Of a stretch of DNA of 64,000 bases, positions 15,652 to 64,000 are shown in pieces. The position numbers and the translations under genes are program-made. Origin of the DNA: Eledone cirrhosa (taxonomy: Eukaryota); contig OZ024758.1 in assembly GCA_964016885.1 (NCBI GenBank), positions 30,876,001-30,940,000 on the forward strand, written 5' to 3'. How positions within the stretch are numbered: the stretch's first letter is position 1; each line of letters starts with the position of its first letter. The notes below the pieces were generated by a model. That model saw nothing but the letters and a program-made list of their open reading frames with translations. It was not told the DNA's origin and searched no databases.

Positions 15652-17053
15652 AATGCAATAACAAAGCTTATGTAGTTGAACATGATGGTATGACTGATAC
15701 TATAAAAAATGACCTAGTGTATCACTGACTATTGATGTATATGTTGATATTGAAGAGCTCAAATCTCCCTTACTTATGATTTGTTATACGGTACTATTGT
15801 GGGGGAAAACCCAGAACACCCCCGCATAACTAAAAGTGGACTAGGCGAAAAGTCTATCAATAATAACTGAAGTGAAACTGTCAGGTAGACTATGTGTAAG
15901 GAGTCTCGTTGTAGTCTCACGTTGGTAGTTTGGAATTACGCCTGGTGAATATTTGGGTTTACCATCGTTTCGTACATGTATCCTAAACAGGTGCGTCACA
16001 CCATCATAGCAGCTACAAATAATCTCTGAAAATGACGTATCTCTCGGCTGTTAGATACCGTGTAATAGAGGATAAGCAATTGCTGCATAGAAATACACTC
16101 GTTTTGTCTTTTTAAGTTAATATTGACTGGAGCTACAACAGATTAAGATTGATAGCTATAAGACTTCAGCAAGTATTGCTAAAATTATGATACGAGTATA
16201 GTTAAATATGTGAGCATGCCTTACGTATATTTATTGCGGATGACTGGTTTAGATTAGAATGTATTTTGCTCCATTTCATCTGATCTCGAATGAGTTAACT
16301 TCTTCTATTTGAAACAAGCTTTCAAACGAATTTAACAGACTAGTAACTTGCGAAACAATGTTATTACTTATAATAGTGGAACTTATTTATAAGTGAGAAA
16401 ATAACTCTGTGGTAGGTGAATTATTGGGAAAAACAACAGTGTAGAAATTGAGCGTGTAAGTGCGAATTTATGACAATAAATTATCTCTATTGTTTTCAAT
16501 TCCGGAAACCATCAAATTTGAAGAAGTGAACACCGAAGGAAGCTTTTAAAATATGCTACAAGCTGGCTTTCGTAAATATGCCATTAAAGGTTACATACAT
16601 TTTGAAATTAAGCAAGAGCAATGGAATTCAATGACATATATGACAGAGTAAGGAAATATAGTTTTGTATCGAGAAGATAAATGGCATTTATTTCTATAAA
16701 ACAATTCCTGTTTACAACTGCAAGAACTAAACATCATTAAGTTAATCTATAAATGTGTTTTCTAGATAAGCAGGAAAACCACAACAAAGAGGGATAAATC
16801 ATGTTTCAAGCTTCTTCAAATGAAATGCTAATATAATTTTTATAACTCTACACGGGGTCAAAACAGTGAAAATGAACAGAGATTTTACACAAAATCACTT
16901 CTCTGCTACAATACATTTGTTATTTGTGTTACTCTACTTAAGTAGAAATCATCATCATCATCAATATTATTATTATTATTATTATTATTTGCATTTATCT
17001 TGCTTTATGTTTATACGACTTATCACCAAGTCACAACCAGTGACCTCAAGAGA

Positions 17054-17131
<78 letters not shown>

Positions 17132-17137
17132 TATTAT

Positions 17138-20100
17138 TGTGGATTGGGGAGAAGGGTGCAAGAGCCTCACCAACCTGCTCAGACGTTTTGAACTGTCTGA
17201 CAGGTATCGACTGGATCACCCGAATGTGCCAATGTGGACATGGACAAACCGCATCGGGTCATCCAGATCGTATCTCGATAAGGTATTCTGCAGAGAACTA
17301 GATAAGGCTAGTACAAGTTGTCCACAATTTAAAATAGTCGAATACACAGGCCACAAATTTGTGATCTGTGAGATCGATATAGACAGACTTCATAGACAAG
17401 GGCCCGGTTACTGGAAGCTGAACGCGTCTTTCCCGGCGCGCAAAGCCTACAGAGACCGGATTAGCGTATTAGTTAAGCGGGCGTTGACGGGAGCGGTCGT
17501 CAACAACAGGTGGTGGTTCGCCCTGATAAGGGCAATTAAAGTAGAGTCGATTAGGTTTAGCAAAAGACTAGTGATAGAGGAAAATAGAGTAGAGGGAGAG
17601 TTAGTTAGAAAGCCAGAAGAGGCGTTTAGGACAGGCATCGCAACCGACGTGCTTGCGGCGAGATTGGCACTCGACCAATTCTTCAACGCAAAACACGAAG
17701 GCTGCGATGTCAGAGCTAGAGCGCGTGCTCTGAAACACGTGGCGACAAAAGCCGTCCAATGCCGGGTGGCAGAGGCGCGACGTGGCAACAAAGCCACAAT
17801 TCGGTCTTTGTCTGACCAAAACGGGTGCGTGTTGCTCGAACCCGAGCAGATGTGTGAAGCTTTTCAGCAGCACTTTGCTGAACTGTTCGGGAGCAGCGGC
17901 GGCCCGGATCGGGCATGGACTTCAGTGCATGCCTCGACGGCTGCCTCGGCTCTCGACGACCGCAGCATAGTGTTGCGAAAAGCCAATAACAGGCGGTGAA
18001 ATACGGGAAGCGATGGCTAACTGCTCGAGGGGTAAATCGCCAGGTTTGGATGGTCTGCCCTACGTGCTTTATGCATGTACGCCAGACTTGTTCGGTGACC
18101 TCTTGTTCGGTGACCTACTGCAACTGGCAGCAGAACGGGAGCATTTCCAGTTTTGTGAGCCGGGGAGCAGTGGCGCTGCTGAGAAAAGACCCGAACAAGG
18201 GGGATGTTATCGATAATTTCAGGCCCTTAACCCTGCTAAACGCAGAGTTCAAGATTTTGGCCAAGGTGTTAGCAACGAGGTTGGCGCTTGTCGTCAAGGG
18301 TCTGGTGGGAGAGGTGCAGACATGCGCCATTCCGGACAGATCGATACACGACAACCTCCACCTCACCTCATGGGATACATCATAGAGAGGGTGGTTAAGG
18401 AACCTGGCACGGGTGGGGCCATGATCAACTTGGATCAACCCAAAGCATTCGATAGGGTCGACCATCGGTACTTGGCGGCGGTCCTAGAGGCAGCCGGTTT
18501 CGGGCCCGTTTTCAGGGATTGGATCGCTACGATGTACAGCGACATCTGCTCAGTTGTGAGGGTGAACGGTCACCTGTCGCAGCCGTTCAGCATCATGCAC
18601 CCAGTCCGCTAGGGTTGTCCCCTCTCGTCCCTATTCTACGTATTGGCTCTCGAGCCGTTACTGCACAAACTGGAGGCGATGAGAGGCGTCCCACGCGAAC
18701 TAGGATGCGGGAAATCCGAGTCGGCTTACGCCGACGATGTCACCGTATTGGTGTCAAACACCAGACACGTCCAGATGTTCGGCACCGCTCTCAAGGAATA
18801 CGAAGCAGTGACAGGAGCAAAGATAAATCAGGAAAAGTCGGTGGGCTTGCAGCTCGGCACCTGGAGAGGCAAGTCCATACCGACCGACAGCGTCGTGGGC
18901 CGTTGGACGAACGGACCGGTTAAATTGCTCGGGGTCTGGTTCGGACCGGACCTCCAGATGGAGAAAAACTGAAACGAGGTGACGAGCAGGGTGGCCTCCC
19001 TCACCCAGAAATGGTCCGAGGGGAAGCTGTCCCTGAAAGGCCGGGCGGAGGTGGCGAATGCGTACATCGCATCCGTCATCTGCTACCGCCTCACCGTCGT
19101 CCCTTGCCCCGGCCCAACTCTCACCAAAATGGAGGGCCTCCTCTTCCGCTTTTTGTGGAAGGGACGCGCTCCCATGGTCAGACGATCCATCTGCTGTCAA
19201 CACCCGTTGCGTGGAGGACTGGGCATGCCATGGCTGATGATGCGCAAACATGCGCTGAGGCTGCGACACATCTGGTGCTTCCTTGACGGTGAACAGGTGT
19301 GGTCGCCGTTCGCCAGGCACGTTTTCCCACAGCTCGTCTCCTTGACGGAGCTGCAGTCCTGGGTCAGAAAAAACTGAGGGATAGCGCTTGGAAACTGGAA
19401 TGTCTCAAGGGGCTCACTGCCTTCTGCCAGCTGGGCACCAGTATCGGTGGAACATCCACCTCGGCGTTCTATAGAGGACTAGTGGAGGGGAAGAGCGATG
19501 ACGTTCTCGGAGAGATCCTGGGGGTCGAAGAAGATCAGCTGTTTGCTCTCTTCCGGAGAACTTTCAGCCCAGGGCCTATGGATAACTTCCAAAAATCCCT
19601 GGCCTGGCAGTGCTACCGGGGAGCGCTGTCGGTTCGAGATAAGCTCTACAGGCACGGAAGTGCCGTCAGCCGAGCCTGTCCGAGATGCGTGCAGAGCGAC
19701 GAAACCGTCGTGCACGCACTCGTTCAGTGCCTGAGCATTGCTGACTTGTGGAGCTATGTCGAACCGTTGCTGTCGCGTGTAGGACTGATCCGGTTATCGA
19801 CTGAGTCAATTGTGCAGATGGTCAAGCCGTCTTCCTTCAAGGAGGAAGGGCAGGCGGTTTTCATCTTCCTGGTGGCCATGGCGAAAGAGATTGTGTGGTG
19901 GACAAGGTTGAAAGGGTTAAAGACAGATACTTTTCTCTTCGGCGAATCCCTAATTAACTTTTTCAAGTTTCACTTGAAGAGGAAAATCAGGGTGGAGAGG
20001 CAAGTGCTGCTTTCTAGCAAGTTTGTTGAAAGGTGGCTGAATGTAGCGAGAATGGTCCGAGTGAATATACGCCTGTAGTTTGAGAAATGGAAATATTGAG

Positions 20101-20378
20101 AGAGGGCGCTTGACCTGGTGGTCAGCGTGGCCGTGGTCTTTTGTGTGGTTTTCGCCACGAGTAACCCTCGGAGGTTTCCCCCCTATTGGGGAATTTTTCA
20201 TTGTTTCAATTTTCATTTTTATTGTTTATATATATGTTTCTATGACCTTTTTTTAATTTTCTTATATAAATAATAAAAATCTTTATACGCACAAAACCCA
20301 CATCGTACCGTCCTGTACCGTCCTGTGCCGTATGTGATGTTTTTCTTGATGTCAGCCCTTGTGACCAATAAAGAAATC
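17138..20378 (+). mobile_element. 5'-truncated degenerate Tx1/L1-group non-LTR retrotransposon (ORF2: APE C-terminus, RT, Cys-rich C-terminus)
   Basis: SYLDKVF, GPGYWKLN, KSPGLDGLP, NFRPLTLLNAEFKILAKVL, DQPKAFDRVDH, YADD, GGLG, CPRC..ETVVHALVQC across frameshifts and stops; AATAAA near 20367. Confidence 0.9.
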
Positions 20379-20395
20379 ATTATTATTCTTTATTA

Positions 20396-20592
20396 TGGTG
20401 ATGAATTGGCAGTATCGGTAGAGGGTTGGACGCCATGCTTCCTAGCATAGTTACGTCCCTTTACAATCTGAGTTCAAATCCCGCCGAGGTTAACTTTGCC
20501 TTTCATCCTTACGGGGTCGATAAAATAAAGTACCAGTAATGTACTGGTTAATTGCTGGCCTTGTGCCTAAAGTAGAAACAATTATTATTATT
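20396..20592 (+). mobile_element. tRNA-derived SINE with (ATT)n tail
   Basis: A-box-like TGGCAGTATCGG, B-box-like GAGTTCAAATCC, tail GGCCTTGTGCCTAAAGTAGAAACAATTATT. Confidence 0.88.
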
Positions 20593-23500
20593 CTTTGAGT
20601 CTCAGTCATTGATGTTAGTTAACTGGAAAGTTTGTTGAAATGAATATCAAGCCACTATCTGCAGCCTCAGATATTCAGGACGTATCGGAGAGTTCTTGCT
20701 GTTCCCAGCAAGCATGCCTTTTGAAGTGTTCCAAAAAGCAGGGCGCGGCCAATTTTCTTTAACCATCCCTGGAAACTTTTTAAGATAGTACCTAGTGCGC
20801 CTATGACAATCGGGACCATTTTCACTTCATGGCAGTTCCAAATCCTTTTTACCTCCCACTTTAAGTCCTGGTATCGGTTAATTTTCTCCCTCTCCTTCTC
20901 TTGCACTCTCGTGTGGAATGGGCAGGCCACATCCACAACCAGGCACCGTCTTTTTTCCTTGTCCAAAACCACCAGTGTTCCAGTTTCTTGTCCGTCTGTA
21001 TCCTAAAATCCCACAGCACCTTCACCTGATAGTTTTCTATCACCGAATATGGCTTATGCTCATACCACTTCTCAGAATGTGGTAAATTTTTTACTTTGCA
21101 TAGATGCCAGTCGATCACCCTGCCCTTCACATAATGTCTCCAGCCTTTATAGTGAGTCTGGGCTAGGTGTCTACACTCGGATACAATGTGAGCCACAGTC
21201 TCCTCTCTTTCTCCACAGATCCTGCACAGTGGGCTAGCCTCCTCCTTGTAAATATGGTGTTTCAGTCACTTCGTTTTGAGGGCCTGCTCTTGCGCAGCCA
21301 TTAGCATTCCTTCTGTAGCCTTTTTAAGGTCTCCTCTTCTCAACCAGTTCCATGTCTGTGGATATCTAAATTCAGTTTTCTCAAAGAAGGTACTATGAAG
21401 GGACTTTTCATGAAGGTTGCTCTTTCTCCTCGTTGATATTTCCTCCTTGGACATCCCCTGGTCTACTGTCCTCTTCTTCAGTACAATTCTGAGCATTGGC
21501 TCCTTACTATCGGTCACGTATTTGTGTAGGTTGTTTTTCTCCATCTGAACACAGTCCTCTATGCTGATAAGACCTCTTCCACCTTCAGATCTCCTTAAGT
21601 AGAGTCTATCGACATCACTCCTCTTGTGGAACATGTTGTAGATAGTCAATAGTTTCCTAGTCTTCCTATCCATTTCTTTTTGTTCAGCAACATTCCATCT
21701 CAGAATTCCCGCACTGTACCTAAGAATAGACACAGCTCGGGAATTTACTGCACTTATGGCATTCCTACTGTTCAGATGTGACTTTAATACGCTCCTTATT
21801 CTCCGAATGTATTCATATCTTATCAATTCCTTCATTTTTTTGTTCTTGATGTCATCAGCCTCCAGAATACCCAAATACTTGTATCCTTCTTCAGTGTCAA
21901 TTTCCTTTATCATCTCACCTGTTGGTACCTGGATTCCGTTGCTTCTGCTCAATTTACCCCTCTTCATCACAAGGACTCCACACTTACTAATTAAAAATTG
22001 CATACATATATCATTGCTGAAAATACGGACACATCCAACTCCTTCTCGCTCTTCCCGAAGAGCTTAAGATCGTCCATGAAGAGGAGGTGATTGATGGTAA
22101 GCTCTCCCTTTCCCAACTTGTATCCTGCTCTCACTTTTCCCAGTATAATGGGCAAGGACAAACAACAGAGGGGACAGACTATCTCCCTGGAAGTTACCTC
22201 TCTTGATCTTCACGCCTCCCAAGGATTTTCCAGCTGATGTTAACTCTGTTTTCCAGGACTTCATACTTTTGCCCAACAACTGTCTGATGTTATCTGCCAC
22301 CTTGAAGATCTCTAGGCTTTTGGTGATCCAAGAATGAGGCACCATGTCAAATACCTTTTTGTAGTCTATCCATCCCATGGCAAGACCAGTGTGTCTCCTA
22401 TTGCAATTCCTCATTACCATCTTATCAATAAGTAACTGGTCCTTTGTACCACCGGACTTCTTTCGGCATCCTTTCTGTTCGTCCGGTAACAAGTTGTTTG
22501 TGTGGAGGTGATGGTAGATTTCCTCAGACACAATGCTTGTCAACAGTTTCCACATTACGGACAGACATGTGATAGGTCTATAGTTGGTAACATCATTACA
22601 CTTGATTCGGTCTTTCATTACCAGAACTGTTGTACCTTTTGTCAACCACTCTGGTACCTCACCTGACATCAAGCAGACATTGAACATGGTTGTCAGTTTC
22701 GGGTGGAGGGATGTTATATTTCTAATCCAATACCCCTGCACACCATCTGGGCCTGGTTATTTCCAGTTGGTTAGTTTTTTGGCCTGCCCCTTAAGAGTTT
22801 CAACTGTGATACTCAAATCAGTTTGTTGGTGTGCCTGTTCACTAATCTCCTTTTGTACTGTCTCAATCCACACTGCCTGGTCATTATGTTTAACATCCTG
22901 CTCCCATATTCCTCTCCAGAATGTCTTAGTTTGTTCCGCTTCAGGGATCAAATCGTTGCCTCTTTCTTTCTCTTCAAGCTGTCCAAACAACATCTTCTGG
23001 TTGTTTGCTTCAATGCGTTGCTTCAGTTCCTCTATGATAATATTTAGCTTTTTCCTCCTAGTTTTGTACTTTATTTCCAGTCTATTTTTAGTGGCCCATT
23101 CAGTAGGGACTCAAGCTTTCCAATGTCATTTCTCATTACTCTGATTTGACCATTCAGTTGTTTCTTCCACCAAGGTTCTGATCTTTCTTGTTTGTTGTTT
23201 CCTCTCGCTTTTATGCCAAGTAATTTCCTCACCGCATTTGCTGTTGCCTTGAGGATATTGTTGCACTGGTGAAGGCTCCTCGCCTCAAGGTATGGGATGA
23301 CTTTGTTTACCTTAGCTGTTGTTTCTTTTAACTTTTTCCTGTCTACAAATCTTAGGTTCATAGGTTTCCCACTATCATTGTTCAATTCATCTACCACTAA
23401 GTTTAGGATATCAACCAAATCTTGTCCTAGCCCGTCAGCATTCATCTCCTCAGTGGCCGTATCTCTGTTCCAGGTATTATTTATTTCAGCATTCAGATCA

Positions 23501-24000
23501 TTGTCTACTTCGGATCGTTCCTCCGTTCTCTCGACCTCTTCACTTTTATTTCCCACTGGCTCGTTTGCCTGGCATACTCCACTCTCCATTTCCAACCTAA
23601 TCAGTTCCTCCAGTTCCAGCTCGCTTATCCACCCATTAGTTCTTATCACCCGAGCCTGCCCGGCCAATTCTGTTCATCTAATTTAAATAGACCAATCTCG
23701 TTCCAGATGCTATGCATCCGTTTCCTATAGCCTTTCTCCTTGGGGTTACTCTTTATGTAACATTGCATAACAGTTCTATTCAATTCTTTCGTCCAGTTGG
23801 TTCTGGTCCCTTTCCTTCTTCTTCTTCCTCCGACACCAGCAGTATTTGGTTGACATCCAGGTCCCTGCTGCTGGGCCAGGGAGCACTTGCTGGGTGAGAG
23901 TCTGTCACATGACATTCCAGTCTCCACTTCCCCGTTATTCGAACTGTTTAGGTTCGACATTTAAACACTCTTGTCGAGGATTGGTGAATGTATGGTTACA
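20593..24000 (-). mobile_element. Near full-length degenerate R4/Dong-like non-LTR retrotransposon (RT plus restriction-like endonuclease)
   Basis: N-terminal WTKELN..GYRKRMHSIW; RT NYRPITCL, WIDYKKVFDMVPH, QGDSLSPLLF, YKYLG; zinc knuckle and RLE VLWDF, VDVACP, KINRYQDL; several frameshifts; (AAT)n tail. Confidence 0.9.
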
Positions 24001-24201
24001 TAACCACCGGTGATTTCATCACCCCCGGTGATTTTAGTGTGGCCCTATCACGCTGTAGACGAACATAAATAAACAAACAAAGAAATAGGTAAAAACCCCC
24101 CAAAAAAGAATAAGCATAAGTTTCATTGTAATGTAATGTTTGAATGTCTGACTTAGTTTTTTTTTCTTCTCTGTCTGTCTGTTTGTTATTATTATTATTA
24201 T

Positions 24202-24320
24202 TCATCCTTACGGGGTCGATAAAATAAAGTACCAGTAATACACTGGGTAATTGCTGGCCTTGTGCCTAACGTAGAAACAATTATTATTATTATTATTATT
24301 ATTATTATTGTTATTGTTAT
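24202..24320 (+). mobile_element. 5'-truncated SINE with (ATT)n tail
   Basis: TCATCCTTACGGGGTCGATAAAATAAAGTACC...GTAGAAACAATTATT. Confidence 0.8.
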
Positions 24321-25823
24321 TCCTTGAATCTCAGTCATTGATGTTGGTTAACTGGAAAGTCCGTTGGATTGAATATCAAGCCACTACCTGCAGCCTCAGA
24401 TATTCAGGACGTATCGGAGGGTTCTTGCCGTTCCAAGCAAGCATGCCTTTTGAAGCGTTCCAAAAAGCGTGAAGGGGCCGATTTTCTTTAACCATCCCTG
24501 GAAACCTTTGGAGATAGTCCCCAGTGCGCCTATGACAATCGGGATCACTTTGACTTCATGGCAGTTCCAAATCCTTTTCACCTCCCACTTTAGGTCCTGG
24601 TATCGGTTAATTTTCTCCCTCTCCTTCTCTTGCACTCTCGTGTCGAACGGGCAGGCCACATCCACAATCAGGCACGATCTTTTTTCTTTGTCCACAACCA
24701 CCAGGTCAGGTCTATTGTGTTCCAGTTTTTTGTCCGTCTGTATCCTAAAATCCCACAGCACCTTCACCTGACTGTTCTCCATCACCGCCTCTGGCCTATG
24801 CTCATACCATTTCTCAGAATGTGGTAGATTGTTTACTTTGCACAGGTGCCAGTGGATCACCCTGCCCATCACATCGTGTCTCCAGCCCTTATAGTGGGTC
24901 TGGGCTAGGTGTTTACACTCGGACACAATGTGAGCCACAGTCTCCTCTCTCTCTCCACAGATCCTGCACAGTGGGCTAGCCTCCTCCTTGTAGATATGGT
25001 GCTTCAACCACTTCGTTTTGAGGGCCTGCTCCTGCGCAGCCATTAGCATTCCTTCTGTAGCCTTTTTGAGGTCTCCTCTTCTCAACCAGTTCCATGTCTG
25101 TGGATCTCTAAATTCAGTTTTCTCAAAGAAGGTACTATGAAGGGATTTTCCCTTAAGGCTGCTCTTCCTCCTTGATGTTATTTCCTCCTTGGGTATCCCC
25201 TGGCCTACTGTCCCCTCCTTCAGTACAGCTCTGAGCATTGGCTCCTTACTATAGGTCACGTATTTGTATAGGTTGTTTTTCTCCATCTGAACACAGTCCT
25301 CTATGCTGATAAGACCTCTTCCACCCTCAGATCTCCTTAGGTAGAGTCTATCGACATCACTCCTCTTGTGGAACATGTTGTAGATAGTCAATAGCTTCCT
25401 AGTCTTCCTATCCATTTCTTTTTGTTCAGCAACATTCCATCTCAGAATTCCCGCACTGTACCTAATAATAGACACAGCTCGGGAATTTACTGCGCTTATG
25501 GCATTTCTGCTGTTCAGATGTGACTTCAATACGCTCCTTACTCTCCGAATGTATTCAGTTCTTAACAATTCCTTCATTTTTTTGTTCTTTATGCCATCAG
25601 CCTCCAGAACGCCCAAATACTTGTATCCTTCCTCAGAGTCAATTTCCTTTATCATCTCACCTGTTGGTATCTGGATCCCGTTACTTCTGCTCAACCTACC
25701 CCTCCTCATCACAATGACTCCACATTTACCAATACCAAACTGCATACATATATCACTGCTGAAAATACGGACAGTGTCAACAAGCACATCCAACTCCTTC
25801 TCACTTTTCCCGAAGAGCTTAAG
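24321..25823 (-). mobile_element. 5'-truncated R4/Dong-like copy with uninterrupted reading frame
   Basis: ORF 24396-25919 after the poly-N run: LKLFGKS, YKYLG, CRIC..ETVAHIVSEC, RHD, RPDLVVVD, DVACP; (AAT)n on both sides. Confidence 0.92.
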
Positions 25824-25880
<57 letters not shown>

Positions 25881-25881
25881 A

Positions 25882-26080
25882 GGGCGGTGGATTAGCAGTA
25901 TCGGTAGAGCGTCGAACACTATGCTTCATAGCATATAATTACGGCCCTTTACGGTCTGAGTTCAAATCCCGCCAAGGTTAACTCTGCCTTTCATCCTTAC
26001 AGGGTCGATAAAATAAAGTACCAGTAATGTACTGGGTAATTGCTGGCCTTGTGCCTAAATTAGAAACAATTATTATTATT
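25882..26080 (+). mobile_element. Full-length tRNA-derived SINE
   Basis: GGGCGGTGGATTAGCAGTATCGG through TAGAAACAATTATTATT. Confidence 0.88.
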
Positions 26081-46851: not shown

Positions 46852-46931
<80 letters not shown>

Positions 46932-47193
46932 TAATGTAGGAGGTGAGTTTTATTGTAGTACAATAAAGCAATGCAGATATCGGATAACAAGCACTCTACA
47001 GTTTGTAGGACTGGAGTATACATAATATATAAGAACAAAATATGTTGATTTAAAACTGCACTATCCACAAGTGTTTTTTAACCTTCATATCATGTCTTCC
47101 TATTTTATCTGATGAAAACAAATATTATTGATGATATTTGTTTTTGAAATGCGCATAATAAAATACATGGAACTCTTTTAACCATCTTTTGTT

Positions 47194-47200
<7 letters not shown>
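46932..47200. mobile_element. Family D short HHR element with one fold-back arm deleted
   Basis: Collinear with 56921-57345 but lacking the equivalent of about 57025-57175. Confidence 0.75.
47101..47165 (+). ncRNA. Type I hammerhead ribozyme, family D
   Basis: TATTTTAT-CTGATGA-AAACAAATATTA TTGA TGATATTTGTTTTT-GAAA-TGCGCA-TA-ATAAAATA. Confidence 0.75.
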
Positions 47201-47264
<64 letters not shown>

Positions 47265-47523
47265 GGAAAAAATGAAACGAAATTTCATTTCCCACTCTTA
47301 GTACGGCTGTTACTTAAATATAAGTATGTATACGTACATACATATATGTATACAGACATACAGTAGTATATATATATATATATACATGCACTCATAAATA
47401 TATGTACGTATGGATTCACCAAACATTTATTATAATGCTCGGTGTGTTTGTAAACAAACATCCCGTATTAAGCCGTAGTGTCCAGCAACCACCGTTGCTC
47501 GTTTCTTCAACACTGACAAAGCA

Positions 47524-47566
47524 ACACCGTACTAGTTTCAAGCTTGTTAGCTATCGTCAGCAACGT
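47524..47566 (-). ncRNA. Type I hammerhead ribozyme, family A2
   Basis: ACGTTG-CTGACGA-TAGCT AACA AGCTT-GAAA-CTAG-TA-CGGTGT. Confidence 0.82.
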
Positions 47567-48086
47567 ATACCTTCCTGCCAGATAGTTGAACGTCCGAAAG
47601 TATACACTTTCCTTATGCATATTAACGGCTGAGTAGCTCAATTTGCATATCGAGTGGGTTAATCGGCCGGGTGCACCGAAAACGATAAAAGGAAAAGAGT
47701 ACAGCGTTCCTTTGTCAGTGTTGAACAAACGAGCAACGGTGGTTGCTAGACACTACGGCTTAATACGGGATATTTGGTTACAAACACACGGAGCATTATA
47801 ATAAATGTTTGGTGAATCCATACGTACATATATATGTGTGCATGTATATATATATACATACTACTGTATGTCTGTATACATATATGTATGTACGTATAAA
47901 TACTTATATTTAAGTAACATCCGTACTAAGAGTGGGAAATGAAATTTCGTTTCATATTTTCCGTTTATCGTTTTCGGTGCACCCGGCCGATTAACCCACT
48001 CGATATGCAAATTGAGCTACTTAGCCGTTAATATGCATATGGAAAGTATATACTTTCGGACGTTCAACTATCTGGCAGGAAGGTAT

Positions 48087-48129
48087 ACGTTGCTGAAGAT
48101 AGCTAACACGCTTGAAACTAGTACGGTGT
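48087..48129 (+). ncRNA. Type I hammerhead ribozyme, family A2
   Basis: ACGTTG-CTGAAGA-TAGCTAACACGCTT-GAAA-CTAG-TA-CGGTGT. Confidence 0.78.
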
Positions 48130-48338
48130 TCCTTTGTCAGTGTTGAACAAACGAGCAACAATGGTTGCTAGACACTACGGCTTAATACGGGATGTTTGTT
48201 TACAAACACACCGAGCATTATAATAAATGTTTGGTGAATCCATACGTACATATATATATGTGTGCATGTATGTATATATATATATATATATACATACTAC
48301 TGTATGTCTGTATACATATATGTATGTACGTATACATA

Positions 48339-48403
<65 letters not shown>

Positions 48404-56718: not shown

Positions 56719-56789
56719 TATTTTATTATGCGCATTTCAAAAACAAATATCATCATGGGATGATATTTGCGTTCTCATCAGATAAAATA
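56719..56789 (-). ncRNA. Type I hammerhead ribozyme, family D
   Basis: TATTTTAT-CTGATGA-GAACGCAAATATCATC CCAT GATGATATTTGTTTTT-GAAA-TGCGCA-TA-ATAAAATA. Confidence 0.82.
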
Positions 56790-56828
56790 GGGAGACATGA
56801 TATGAAGCTTAAAAAACACTTGCGAGCA

Positions 56829-56867
<39 letters not shown>

Positions 56868-56872
56868 CAGTT

Positions 56873-56924
<52 letters not shown>

Positions 56925-57045
56925 GGAGGTGAGTTTTATTGTAGTACAATAAAGCAATGCAGATATCGGATAAGAAGCACTCTACAGTTTGTGGGACTGG
57001 AGTATGCATAATATAAGATCAAAAGATGGTTAAAGGAGTTCAATA

Positions 57046-57116
57046 TATTTTATTATGCGCATTTCAAAAACAAACATCATCAAACAATAATATTTGTGTT
57101 TTCATCAGATAAAACA
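57046..57116 (-). ncRNA. Type I hammerhead ribozyme, family D
   Basis: Mirror of 57237-57307. Confidence 0.8.
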
Positions 57117-57236
57117 GGAGAACATGATATGAAGGCTAAAAAAACACTTGTTGATAGTGCAGTTTTAAATCAACATATGTTGATTTAAAACTGCACTATC
57201 AACAAGTGTTTTTTTAGCCTTCATATCATGTTCTCC

Positions 57237-57307
57237 TGTTTTATCTGATGAAAACACAAATATTATTGTTTGATGATGTTTGTTTTTGAAATGCGCATAA
57301 TAAAATA
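57237..57307 (+). ncRNA. Type I hammerhead ribozyme, family D
   Basis: TGTTTTAT-CTGATGA-AAACACAAATATTATT GTTT GATGATGTTTGTTTTT-GAAA-TGCGCA-TA-ATAAAATA. Confidence 0.8.
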
Positions 57308-59530: not shown

Positions 59531-59994
59531 TTGATTACAGAGTCGGGCCAAATCGATGCAGATCGAACCTTCAGCTGATCAATCGTGAAATGCCTCACAC
59601 ATCAATAAATTTAATGAAGATCTAACACTTCGTCCATTTTATTATTAGTATTAAACTCTGCTTAGTACAACACCAACATACTTACTGTAAACTACGCATT
59701 GAGTGCTCACTCTGGTAAACCTACAGTAACTGGACGTTACAATCCCTATATATATATATATATATATATAAACAATTAAGTTAAAAATGTACATCCATAT
59801 ATGTATACTGAAATACTAGTATGCATATGAATACACACACGTATACATATGTAGATGTACCAAGTCTTTCACTGGTTACTTTACTGTGAGTATCCAGCTA
59901 TTCTGTATGTAAACACACAGACAAACCGGTTTTTAGAGTCATACTGGTTTTTGAGGAAACACCTTTCCTCTATTCTCCAGAAAGCCAGACAAGG

Positions 59995-60039
59995 AATATT
60001 GAACTAGTTTCGTTGCTGTTACAACTCATCAGCAATATT
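59995..60039 (-). ncRNA. Type I hammerhead ribozyme, family B
   Basis: AATATTG-CTGATGA-GTTG TAACAG CAAC-GAAA-CTAG-TT-CAATATT. Confidence 0.9.
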
Positions 60040-60643
60040 TACCTATCTACCGGCCTTTCTGGAGAATCGTAAAAGCACATATCGTTATATGCTTTTTCTA
60101 TGAAAATTAGTAGTGGGCAGACTAATTTGCATAGAATGTGAGTACGTACCGGTTCAACGGAGACGATAAAAACAAATAACGAAACGAAATTAAATTTCGT
60201 TTCGTTTGTAACTCACTTTTGTATGACTGACGCTTAAACAATTAAGTTAAAAATGTACATCCATATATGTATACTGAAATACTAGTATGCATATGAATAC
60301 ACACACGTATACATATGTAGATGTACCAAGTCTTTCACTGGTTACTTTACTGTGAGTATCCAGCTATTCTGTATGTAAACACACAGACAAACCGGTTTTT
60401 AGAGTCATACTGGTTTTTGAGGAAACACCTTTTTAACTTAATTGTTTAAGCGTCAGTCATACAAAAGTGAGTTACAAACGAAACGAAATTTAATTTCGTT
60501 TCGTTATTTGTTTTTATCGTCTCCGTTGAACCGGTACGTACTCACACTCTATGCAAATTAGTCTGCCCACTACTAATTTTCATAGAAAAAGCATATAACG
60601 ATATGTGCTTTTACGATTCTCCAGAAAGGCCGGTAGATAGGTA

Positions 60644-60688
60644 AATATTGCTGATGAGTTGTAACAACAACGAAACTAGTTCAATATT
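60644..60688 (+). ncRNA. Type I hammerhead ribozyme, family B (predicted cut after GUU, 60681)
   Basis: AATATTG-CTGATGA-GTTG TAACAA CAAC-GAAA-CTAG-TT-CAATATT; outer stem ATTCTCCAGAAA/TTTCTGGAGAAT. Confidence 0.9.
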
Positions 60689-61043
60689 CCTTGTCTGGCT
60701 TTCTGGAGAATAGAGGAAAGGTGTTTCCTCAAAAACCAGTATGACTCTAAAAACCGGTTTGTCTGTGTGTTTACATACAGAATAGCTGGATACTCACAGT
60801 AAAGTAACCAGTGAAAGACTTGGTACATCTACATATGTATACGTGTGTGTATTCATATGCATACTAGTATTTCAGTATACATATATGGATGTACATTTTT
60901 AACTTAATTGTTTAAGCATCAGTCATACAAAAGTGAGTTACAAGCGAAACGAAATTTAATTTCGTTTCGTTATTTGTTTTTATATATATATATATATATC
61001 GATAATATTAATAAATGGAAAATAACTTTATAAAACCATATTT

Positions 61044-61163: not shown

Positions 61164-61213
<50 letters not shown>

Positions 61214-61254
61214 GATATTAAATAAATGGAAACTATATTTATAAAACCATATTT

Positions 61255-61317
61255 ATTTCATTATACATATTTCAGGGATACTAAATTAAAATATGGTATG
61301 CCTTCATCAGACAAAAT
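61255..61317 (-). ncRNA. Type I hammerhead ribozyme, family C
   Basis: ATTTTGT-CTGATGA-AGGCATACCA..TAGTATCCCT-GAAA-TATGTA-TA-ATGAAAT. Confidence 0.75.
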
Positions 61318-61785
61318 ACAATATATAAACAGTTTTATAAATAATTTTGACGTACCCTATTAGAAGCGACCATTACTTTTGGAAGCTGTCTGGATAGTGA
61401 TATGTTTATAATTATTTTATTACTTGTAGTGTTAAGCACAGTTAGAAAAAAGACGGAGAGAAAAGAAAAACGGAGATAAAGAAGGAGAAAGAAAAAAGAA
61501 GGAGAGAGAGAAAAGGAAGATATATATAAAAATAGATAGGAGGAATTGAAAAAGAAAGAAACAAGAAAGGTTTTTATATATATCTTCCTTTTCTCTCTCT
61601 CCTTCTTTTTTCTTTCTCCTTCTTTATCTCCGTTTTTCTTTTCTCTCCGTCTTTTTTCTAACTGTGCTTAACACTTCAAGTAATAAAATAATTATAAACA
61701 TATCACTATCCAGACAGCTTCCAAAAGTAATGGTCGCTTCTAATAGGGTACGTCAAAATTATTTATAAAACTGTTTATATATTGT

Positions 61786-61848
61786 ATTTTGTCTGATGAA
61801 GGCATACCATATTTTAATTTGGTATCCCTGAAATATGTATAATGAAAT
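61786..61848 (+). ncRNA. Type I hammerhead ribozyme, family C
   Basis: ATTTTGT-CTGATGA-AGGCATACCA..TGGTATCCCT-GAAA-TATGTA-TA-ATGAAAT. Confidence 0.82.
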
Positions 61849-61979
61849 AAATATGGTTTTATAAATATAGTTTCCATTTATTTAATATCGTATATCTACT
61901 CCAAAAACTTGTCGAGTGCTTTATATCAGTTATAAAATATTTACTTGTTGAATCCCAACAATTTTAAATAAATAATATA

Positions 61980-62477: not shown

Positions 62478-64000
62478 TACTTCTCTTAGGTCAGTGTTGT
62501 TTGTTTGGGTGTTGTTGTTATTCCATTCATTTTTTCTGTTTAGCCTTGGCCTTCCAAGTTCTATTTCGCTGGCCTCTCTGATTTGCCTATCTGCTGGGTC
62601 ATTTCTATGTTTAGATATTCTAATTTCTATGTTGTCTATGTTACCGTTGTGTTGTCTGGCATGTTCGTATAGTACTGAACCGTTTTTCGTCCTTTTAGCC
62701 CCCCCCCCCCCCCCCAGTGTTGGTCTATCCTTTCACCTATGCTACGAGCTGTCTCGCCTATGTATGTTGTCATGTTTCTGCAAGTACCCTCTGTACATCT
62801 TATGCTATAGACTACGTTTCTAGTTTTACAGTTTATCCGGGGGTTTACTCTACATATGATACATTTCCTATCAGTACAGTGGGTTTTCTTAAAAGGGTAG
62901 GTTTTGCTGATCAGGGATTTTTTGGTGGTTCCTGGCTTTTCTACCACCTTAATCTTTAAGTGGGTCTTGTCAGGGCCTTTCTACACTGGTTAGCTAATTT
63001 CCCTCCAGGGGTAGCGTCCACAAACATGACACTCTGGTATCTCTGGTTGTCGTATCATGATGTGGCCTTCCCTATCTTATGTCTAGCCCTATCTAAGCTA
63101 TTCCATGATTTGCTCCTGTATAATGGGAAAATTACTTTCATGTCCAGTTCTATGAGGTTCTTATATTTCTCCGTGGCTCCTTCGTATACTCTGATTCTGT
63201 CTCTTTGGTTGTAGCCAGAGAACTGCATGCGGTTGATGAAGTGTTGGATGTGTCTTTCCATTTCTGTTGGGTCGCACATGCGGGACACGTTCTTCATCAC
63301 TCGTACCAAGTCTGCGATTAGAATATTATACTTAGCACTACTGGACATTGCTGAGTTTTTGAGTATCAGGTATTTGGAGGCCATGGGTTTAGCATAGTGT
63401 GAGTGGAGAATTTGGGCTCTCTCGTCTATAGTGTTAATCCAGAGTTCCGTGTCTAATACAGGTAGTCTATTGTTAGGGGGTTTGGAAGGGTAGTCGATAG
63501 TTACAGTTATACTCTGGTGTATGGAATTAGCTATCTGCTGGATGCTTTCCATCGTGCTACGTTCTAAATCAAACTTGTTAGTGCTCTCTTGTGGGGATGT
63601 CCTTATTACTATATTGATGTCATCTACGTAGCGAGAGTACATGATGAGGTCTATGGAGCTTTCATCAAGGAGATCTTTGAGTCTCCTTTCCTACCATACC
63701 ATAAAAAGGTTGGCAACGTCACCAGCTATGCTGACGCCAATGGCTGCTCCCTCATTTTGGGTGTAGATCTTCTCGTTGAACTTGAATATGTGGCCCTTTA
63801 GGGTAGTTTTGAAACTAGCTCCTATTGCATGTGCGACCATTTTTCTTACCTGATCATTGTTTTGGGGGTCCGTATAGCTTTGGTCCACCCAATCCACCTT
63901 CACATGGGAGTCCTTTTTGCCATTCAGGATATGGGGGGGGGGGGGGTCTACCTCTTATGGGTCTACTGGGGCAAAAACGTCTAAAGTCATGGCTGTCTAG
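61980..64000 (-). mobile_element. Degenerate Penelope-like element (RT plus C-terminal GIY-YIG), runs off the window end; different lineage from the 32k and 38k copies
   Basis: FKFNEKIYTQNEGAAIG, RYVDDI, LPVLDTEL, HYAKPMAS, FSGYN, C..CIIC, VVYSIRC..YIGETARSIGERIDQH. Confidence 0.88.

What the first reader, a model, noticed from the sequence alone, without database searches (positions are those of the whole stretch)
59770..60981. Family B: young 466-nt ORF-less monomer with a canonical hammerhead, integrated as more-than-unit-length tandem and inverted copies (candidate non-LTR retrozyme / circRNA)
Seen: the period is 466 nt on both strands (59770/60236 and 60433/60899), and each full unit has one HHR with all core residues, a 7-bp stem I extended by a 12-bp outer stem, a G-C closed stem II and palindromic ACUAGU stem III. 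The copies differ at only a few positions. Known: metazoan non-LTR retrozymes are short tandem HHR-bearing repeats that yield circular RNAs and are thought to use PLE machinery. Inference: both arms exceed one unit and run through the predicted cleavage site (60681), which fits reverse transcription around a circular or multimeric RNA. I cannot tell whether this family is already described.
Basis: partly seen in the sequence, partly recalled or inferred. Interest (0 to 1): 0.88.

Follow-up and report, generated by a model that had tools for sequence, protein, structure and literature searches.

The report
Two-armed hammerhead retrozyme, edited circle template
This is one of more than two thousand young genomic insertions of a 466-base non-coding repeat that carries a hammerhead ribozyme motif; it is a new member of a known kind of animal RNA parasite (retrozyme), and the shape of its copies suggests that a borrowed Penelope-type enzyme likely copies one small, probably circular and edited RNA outwards from both ends of a DNA break, although cutting and circles are untested.

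Summary
Observation confirmed: 59770-60983 is two head-to-head arms (1.42 and 1.18 units) of a 466-nt ORF-less unit with one type I hammerhead, set in (TA)n. The genome holds 5,256 exact hammerhead-core matches and 2,093 exact copies of one end junction. In 114 stretches, 193 of 202 arms end at one of two internal sites about 70 nt apart, not at the cleavage site; 71 of 72 inverted pairs have one arm from each site. This is the Penelope (PLE) 'tail' footprint, shared by two coding PLE families here. No arm is the terminal repeat of those PLEs; the partner enzyme is unidentified. Young arrays are uniform across both arms, several with haplotypes found in no other long array. Changes fixed across an insertion are A>G-biased on the ribozyme strand (20 of 47, against 10 of 129 single-unit changes). 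This favours repeated copying of one edited monomer, probably a circle, but DNA-level duplication also occurs and no RNA run was listed. This copy has one ribozyme per arm and could not release a monomer itself. New member of a known kind. The scan noted the same before on this genome and others.

The parts
59770..60432 (-). Left arm, 1.42 units; 3' end (ribozyme sense) at the first internal site (unit position 14-16), 5'-truncated at unit position 285
60433..60983 (+). Right arm, 1.18 units; 3' end at the second internal site (unit position 83-85), 5'-truncated at the inversion junction
60433..60898 (+). One 466-nt period used as reference (unit position 1 = 60433); the predicted monomer would run from position 250 round to 249
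   Evidence: circular fold -150.4 kcal/mol, z -9.9 against 60 shuffles
60633..60704 (+). Type I hammerhead motif; core 60651-60657 and 60672-60675, stem III 60675-60680, predicted cut after 60681
59979..60050 (-). Type I hammerhead motif of the left arm; predicted cut after 60002 (minus strand)
60915..60983 (+). PLE-type 'tail': about 70 nt between the two end sites, with a 29-nt hairpin; present at the end of only one arm
   Evidence: concept from PMC8557442 and PMC11167929
60551..60558 (+). Octamer motif ATGCAAAT, kept in the 60%-identical sister family; possible snRNA-type promoter element (function recalled, untested)
59748..59769 (.). (TA)n target tract, left
60984..61000 (.). (TA)n target tract, right

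Best explanation
This is one insertion of an abundant non-coding 466-nt hammerhead repeat (a non-LTR retrozyme) that lands in TA microsatellites as two back-to-back arms ending at two fixed internal sites, and is likely written there by a borrowed Penelope-type reverse transcriptase/endonuclease that likely copies one probably circular, likely edited monomer RNA from both ends of the break. Steps: (1) inferred: loci with two or more ribozymes are transcribed and cut, probably as double hammerheads because stem III is short and palindromic, and the monomer is ligated to a circle; (2) inferred from the A>G strand bias: the structured RNA is A-to-I edited; (3) footprint shown, enzyme inferred: both strands of a (TA)n tract are cut and each 3' end primes at one of two internal sites (unit positions 85 and 11-16); (4) shown in DNA: each cDNA runs through the cleavage site without a scar, for up to 28 rounds in the longest arm seen; (5) shown: the two truncated ends are joined, mostly over a few shared bases. 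The window copy stopped after 1.2-1.4 rounds and is likely a dead end.
For: Family size: 5,256 exact core matches, control 0; 2,093 exact site-85/TA junctions, control 0. Ends: 193 of 202 arms at the two sites; 71 of 72 head-to-head pairs with two canonical ends have one of each; 148 of 159 canonical ends abut TA-rich DNA. Two coding PLE families show the same footprint with 60- and 80-nt tails. PMC11167929 shows two internal RT start sites bounding the tail in a PLE. 5' ends do not pile up at the cut site: 8 of 202, 8.2 expected; 1 indel in 584 crossings of it. Uniform young arrays: 18 of 18, 24 of 24, 13 of 13 and 12 of 12 full units identical in substitutions across both arms. Haplotypes with no long source array in the assembly: L124 (16 units; the six other carriers are single units of other backgrounds), L126 (15 units; only other carrier 2.5 units), L199 and L204. 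L204 repeats 8 extra A>G changes in 14 of 14 full units. Spectrum: A>G 20 and T>C 7 of 47 rare locus-fixed changes, against 10 and 21 of 129 single-unit changes (Fisher p 4e-7 for A>G share, 0.002 for A>G vs T>C). A207G is fixed in 11 of 13 carrier loci on two subfamilies and several backgrounds. A compensatory stem II change (227/238) marks one subfamily and the core is kept in a 60%-identical sister family.
Against: No cleavage or RNA was observed. In PMC11167929 the ribozyme was not needed and unprocessed RNA was the main substrate in vitro; 8 of 9 Xenopus retrozyme dimers did not cleave. U at the cut position and a 2-bp stem III predict weak cutting (recalled; stem III point also). Arrays also change at DNA level: block duplications and arm-to-arm sharing in L092, L118, L120, L125, L210 and the C1:56.39 Mb array. 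Three haplotype searches did not give privacy: the triple A>G haplotype is in 69 units at 7 loci, A207G in 59 units at 13 loci, A125G in 58 units at 10 loci. Recurrence could come from template switching, which is seen (L107, L121, L214, C24 array). ADAR context is weak: 16 of 21 A>G sites paired against 89 of 149 A's, no 5'-G depletion. One assembly may lack source arrays. Loci were not sampled at random. No PLE with matching tail sequence was found.
Confidence: 0.62

Rival explanations
1. Same PLE-driven two-site priming, but the template is a long uncut linear transcript of an existing array; the ribozyme is slow or irrelevant to mobility.
For: [quoted passage not shown] Scar-free crossings and even 5' ends fit this equally. 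One subfamily has an 18-unit arm that could template its shorter sisters. L032 shares one change in the last unit of both arms.
Against: Needs a long uniform source for each haplotype; none in the assembly for L124, L126, L199, L204. Editing of a multimer should differ from unit to unit, yet 8 A>G changes recur in 14 of 14 units. Some one-unit-to-many step is still needed.
Confidence: 0.2
2. PLE inserts only 1-2 units per arm from a single (linear or circular) edited RNA; long uniform arrays arise afterwards by slippage or unequal exchange.
For: Periodic block patterns prove some DNA-level duplication. Median arm is about 1.4 units. Explains fixed A>G marks too.
Against: The longest two-arm arrays are the least mutated, and both arms are long and identical together; arm lengths correlate (rho 0.40, p 0.002, confounded by sampling); mid-arm switches between subfamilies look like RT events.
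Confidence: 0.12
3. The unit is the terminal repeat (pLTR) of an undetected coding PLE and the copies are its short truncated products.
For: Retrozymes resemble pLTRs in Xenopus; only 114 stretches of more than 2,000 loci were read, and only two PLE proteins were used as probes.
Against: 0 of 42 free 5' ends have a PLE RT or endonuclease end upstream; arms continue as unit after unit; longest Met-started frame 50 codons; no extended match to pLTRs of the PLE families examined.
Confidence: 0.04

Closest known systems
Metazoan non-LTR retrozymes (Cervera and de la Pena 2020, PMC7229834, parts 2-4 of 6 read; Li, Clavereau and Pollet 2026, 10.64898/2026.07.22.740005, parts 1-3 of 5 read)
   Same: Short, low-GC, non-coding tandem unit with one type I hammerhead; thousands of copies; co-occurs with PLEs; strongly self-paired; stem III like axolotl HHR_Amex1 (palindromic, dimer-acting).
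   Different: Slightly longer than the 150-450 bp first described (inside the 51-972 bp of the preprint). The parts read describe no two-armed inversion, fixed internal end sites, (TA)n targeting or editing marks, and propose the circle as RT template without genomic evidence. Expression and cleavage were shown there and are not shown here.
EN+ Penelope-like elements (Craig et al. 2021, PMC8557442, 12 passages read; Frangieh et al. 2024, PMC11167929, parts 1-2 of 4 read)
   Same: Partial tandems, inverted 5'-truncated copy, tail at one end, two internal start sites, AT-rich or (TA)n targets, type I hammerhead.
   Different: No ORF; tail about 70 nt rather than 30-40; arms of up to 28 units; no extended sequence match to the PLEs examined.
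PLE hammerhead and circular-intermediate hypothesis (Cervera and de la Pena 2014, PMC4209133, 12 passages read)
   Same: Proposes ligation of cut RNA to circles that template more-than-unit reverse transcription.
   Different: A proposal there; here supported by haplotype uniformity and A>G bias across sister copies.
Non-autonomous Chlamys elements such as MRC1 (passage in PMC8557442)
   Same: Non-autonomous PLE passengers with multicopy head-to-tail insertions.
   Different: Those share 3'-end sequence with autonomous partners and the clade lacks canonical hammerheads; here no partner match was found.

Membership tests
Non-LTR retrozyme | Short tandem unit of a few hundred bases, dispersed at many loci | tested here: met
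   Period 465-470 at many loci; 5,256 core matches; 2,093 end junctions
Non-LTR retrozyme | One type I hammerhead per unit with intact core | tested here: met
   All core positions present; Rfam HH9 E 4e-8 but below gathering score
Non-LTR retrozyme | Non-coding, GC below 50%, no LTR structure | tested here: met
   GC 35%, longest Met-started frame 50 codons; PBS and PPT were not searched for separately
Non-LTR retrozyme | Highly self-paired monomer | tested here: met
   Circular MFE -150.4, shuffles -92.6 +/- 5.8, z -9.9; antisense -132.7
Non-LTR retrozyme | At least two ribozymes in tandem at the locus ('active' by Li et al.) | tested here: not met
   Not met by the window copy (one per arm); met by many sister loci
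Non-LTR retrozyme | Self-cleavage in vitro | not testable with these tools
   Only indirect: compensatory stem II change and conserved core
Non-LTR retrozyme | Expressed as linear and circular monomer RNA | not testable with these tools
   No RNA run available for laying; indirect genomic evidence only
Non-LTR retrozyme | Target-site duplication, when present | tested here: inconclusive
   Ends lie in (TA)n, where a duplication cannot be read
PLE-type insertion | Partial tandem plus inverted 5'-truncated copy | tested here: met
   80 head-to-head pairs in 114 stretches; 9 further short opposite arms among 42 unpaired arms
PLE-type insertion | Tail at one end only, bounded by two internal start sites | tested here: met
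   193 of 202 ends at two sites; 71 of 72 pairs one of each
Autonomous PLE | ORF with RT and GIY-YIG endonuclease between pLTRs | tested here: not met
   No ORF; 0 of 42 free 5' ends joined to a PLE ORF end
Derivative of a named PLE family | Sequence homology to the pLTR or tail of an autonomous partner | tested here: inconclusive
   Only short matches (10-19 nt) to the two families read in full and to 53 flanking segments of others; PLE families not surveyed exhaustively

The most novel reading that the evidence does not exclude
The family is a genomic record of rolling-circle target-primed reverse transcription: a PLE dimer primes both ends of a staggered (TA)n break at two sites of ONE ADAR-edited RNA circle and laps it up to tens of times, so RNA editing drives the element's sequence evolution, and the same route would explain the tandem, inverted and tailed insertions of coding PLEs.
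Probability: 0.4. Interest if true: 0.8.

Novelty: new member of a known kind. Interest (0 to 1): 0.57.

Why it matters
Two questions are stated as open in the papers read: whether retrozyme circles are the real templates for new insertions, and how PLEs make tandem, inverted, tailed insertions. This family gives exact start sites, target and a one-arm-per-site rule for an in vitro PLE assay, and its editing-like marks act as single-molecule barcodes that separate circle from multimer templates. If true it shows RNA edits being written back into an animal genome at scale. The element class itself is known, and this particular copy is an ordinary short member.

Tried and rejected
Sequencing runs: no RNA holder listed. 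Four runs of unknown kind were laid: X1 shows many variant contigs; X4, X5 and X6 (three other organism codes) hold near-identical pieces; the single X4 contig is 496 nt (period plus 30), which tandem DNA and a circle would both give, so it was not used. Linear cleaved monomer as template (ends at the cut site, or jump scars): rejected, 8 of 202 5' ends near it, 1 of 202 3' ends at 248, 1 indel in 584 crossings. 'Within-locus distance below nearest other locus' as a general test: only 18 of 51, uninformative for older loci. Private status of the C1:30.83 Mb haplotype, A207G and A125G: not private. Ribozyme conservation among sampled copies (0 of 13 core positions with a fixed change, p 0.17): not significant, and part of the sample was picked by an exact core match. 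ADAR neighbour and pairing preference: not shown. Dimer circles caused by a dead ribozyme: rejected for L092 (pattern does not continue), only suggestive for L128. Partner PLE: not found. Pfam gave one weak RVT_1 hit in 6 PLE fragments. Rfam found nothing at the variant ribozyme of the second PLE. Rfam sraA and miRNA hits are hairpin noise. Literature searches that returned no description of this family or of editing-marked retrozyme insertions, judged from listings: (newt promoter) returned none, so the octamer reading is recalled. Dfam and Repbase could not be searched; supplements were not read and may list such families.

Full report
Observation. The stretch 59770-60983 is two arms of one 466-nt unit between TA tracts. 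Numbering the unit from 60433, the right arm reads 1-466 then 1-85 on the plus strand; the left arm reads 285-466, 1-466, 1-16 on the minus strand. Four substitutions separate the copies. Each arm has one type I hammerhead with every core residue, a 7-bp stem I, a 5-bp stem II, the palindromic stem III and a predicted cut after unit position 249 (60681). Rfam HH9 matches both below its gathering score. The unit is 35% GC, has no Met-started frame above 50 codons and folds as a circle far more stably than shuffles (z -9.9). With one ribozyme per arm, this locus could not release a monomer by two cuts in one strand.

Family. A 23-mer of the ribozyme core occurs 5,256 times in G000 (3.0 Gb; control 0), and the exact junction of position 85 with TATAT 2,093 times, so there are at least about 2,000 insertions. 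I aligned 114 stretches, chosen by likeness to the window unit, by order along contig C1, by likeness to a young subfamily and by single variants; duplicates were dropped, arms under 60 nt were not counted, and four stretches were read but left out of the tallies. The sample is therefore not random.

Insertion anatomy. Of 202 arms, 101 end (ribozyme sense) at positions 80-86 (92 at 85), 92 at positions 2-18 (43 at 16, 29 at 11) and 9 elsewhere, two of these at assembly gaps. Of 80 head-to-head pairs, 72 have two canonical ends and 71 of these have one of each. In the earlier set, 148 of 159 canonical ends abut TA-rich DNA and junctions mostly overlap by a few bases. Nine of the 42 unpaired arms have a short opposite arm from the other site. 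Craig et al. describe partial tandems, an inverted truncated copy, a tail at one end and (TA)n targets for PLEs (passages); Frangieh et al. show that a PLE starts reverse transcription at two internal sites that bound the tail. Two coding PLE families of this genome have the same footprint: a 1,238-aa RT/GIY-YIG element with a 60-nt tail and a hammerhead and a very young 3,531-nt element with an 80-nt tail and multi-unit arms. Neither shares more than short words with the unit, so the partner is unnamed. None of the 42 free 5' ends has an RT or endonuclease end of either protein within 1.5 kb upstream, so in this sample the unit is not a pLTR.

What was the template? Ends ignore the cut site: 8 of 202 5' ends lie within 240-258 (8.2 expected) and 584 crossings show one indel. 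A cut linear monomer is therefore excluded, leaving a seamless circle or an uncut multimer. The youngest arrays are uniform across both arms: 18 of 18, 24 of 24, 13 of 13, 12 of 12 and 14 of 15 full units identical in substitutions. I searched the whole assembly for five haplotype markers. Two were informative directly: G281T (16 units in L124; the six other carriers are lone units of other backgrounds) and C361T (15 units in L126; one other carrier of 2.5 units). Three were not private: the 119/123/124 triple A>G (69 units, 7 loci), A207G (59 units, 13 loci) and A125G (58 units, 10 loci). Reading those carriers showed A207G fixed in 11 of 13 loci on two subfamilies and several backgrounds, and two more arrays whose full haplotype has no other carrier in that list: L199 (8 full units, both arms) and L204 (14 of 14 units, one arm, eight extra A>G plus two T>C). 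In 85 of 94 loci (9 chimeric or double stretches dropped; the 20 loci picked for A>G markers not included), rare changes fixed across an insertion were A>G in 20 and T>C in 7 of 47, whereas changes in a single unit were A>G in 10 and T>C in 21 of 129; polarity rests on the majority letter, and fixed changes were counted once per site. An earlier within-subfamily count was weaker (8 of 21 against 8 of 58, p 0.03). A strand-specific excess that is absent from DNA-level mutations points to the RNA stage, most simply A-to-I editing (inference; pairing and neighbour preferences were not significant, and RT or transcription-linked bias is not excluded). The same edits in every unit are what repeated reading of one monomer would give.

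Against. Nothing was seen at RNA level. The anole PLE inserted from unprocessed RNA without ribozyme activity, and 8 of 9 Xenopus dimers did not cut. Periodic blocks and arm-to-arm sharing in six arrays show duplication and conversion after insertion, so long uniform arms could partly be DNA-made. Mid-arm switches between subfamilies (L107, L121, L214, C24 array) mean variants can move between backgrounds without recurring. One assembly may lack source arrays. I put the full circle model at 0.62, uncut multimer at 0.20, later DNA expansion at 0.12; that the element is a PLE-mobilised non-autonomous hammerhead repeat I put at about 0.9.

Comparison and novelty. It meets the sequence criteria of non-LTR retrozymes (preprint); cleavage and circles could not be tested. 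The circle as template is proposed in PMC4209133 and PMC7229834. In the nine searches made no listing pointed to this family, to the one-arm-per-site rule in a retrozyme, or to editing marks as evidence of the template; supplements, Dfam and Repbase were not seen. Earlier notes of this scan, read after my analysis, report the same anatomy and, for what is probably this family, the editing marks (a sequence look-up returned nothing); they are not independent support. Verdict: new member of a known kind with an unusually informative footprint; interest 0.57.

Noticed in passing
window 47262-48340: Sister retrozyme: about 422-nt unit, about 60% identical over the aligned length, two head-to-head arms in (TA)n, same ACUAGU stem III, octamer and homologous end sites.
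   Followed up: partly
window 61205-61898, 56781-57290, 46930-47200, 30420: At least two other families with type I hammerhead motifs (long stem II, palindromic stem III), in tandem or inverted copies next to TA tracts.
   Followed up: no
L184 5770-5865 (G000 C1:437.21 Mb): The very young 3,531-nt PLE (784-codon frame, identical tandem copies, 80-nt tail) has by eye a type I hammerhead with the U3-A8 core variant, 18 nt upstream of its first end site; Rfam misses it (variant described in PMC4209133).
   Followed up: partly
L159 4325-8041 (-), L160 2353-6066 (+); window 62500-64000 (-): High-copy PLE with a 1,238-aa frame, long Asn/Thr-rich insert, C-terminal GIY-YIG, hammerhead in the pLTR and 60-nt tail; a broken relative lies at the window's right end.
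   Followed up: partly
L107, L121, L214, G000 C24:19.45 Mb: Arms that switch from one subfamily to another in mid-array; in L214 the second arm belongs to the subfamily switched to, suggesting two RNAs at one insertion or later conversion.
   Followed up: partly
L128 1693-8376: 14-unit arm with an approximate two-unit period in which alternate units lose the G10.1 base of the ribozyme; a dimer template or later duplication.
   Followed up: partly
L081, L102-L107: A 7-locus subfamily whose three A>G changes destroy the octamer motif yet has some of the longest arrays, so the octamer is not strictly needed or a single source reads through.
   Followed up: partly
L053 1204-1766: One insertion sits in a (CAT)n tract instead of (TA)n.
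   Followed up: no
runs X4, X5, X6: Near-identical pieces of the unit in three other organism codes; kind of run unknown.
   Followed up: partly
window 16824-25925: Several broken non-LTR retrotransposon reading frames (endonuclease- and RT-like by eye).
   Followed up: no
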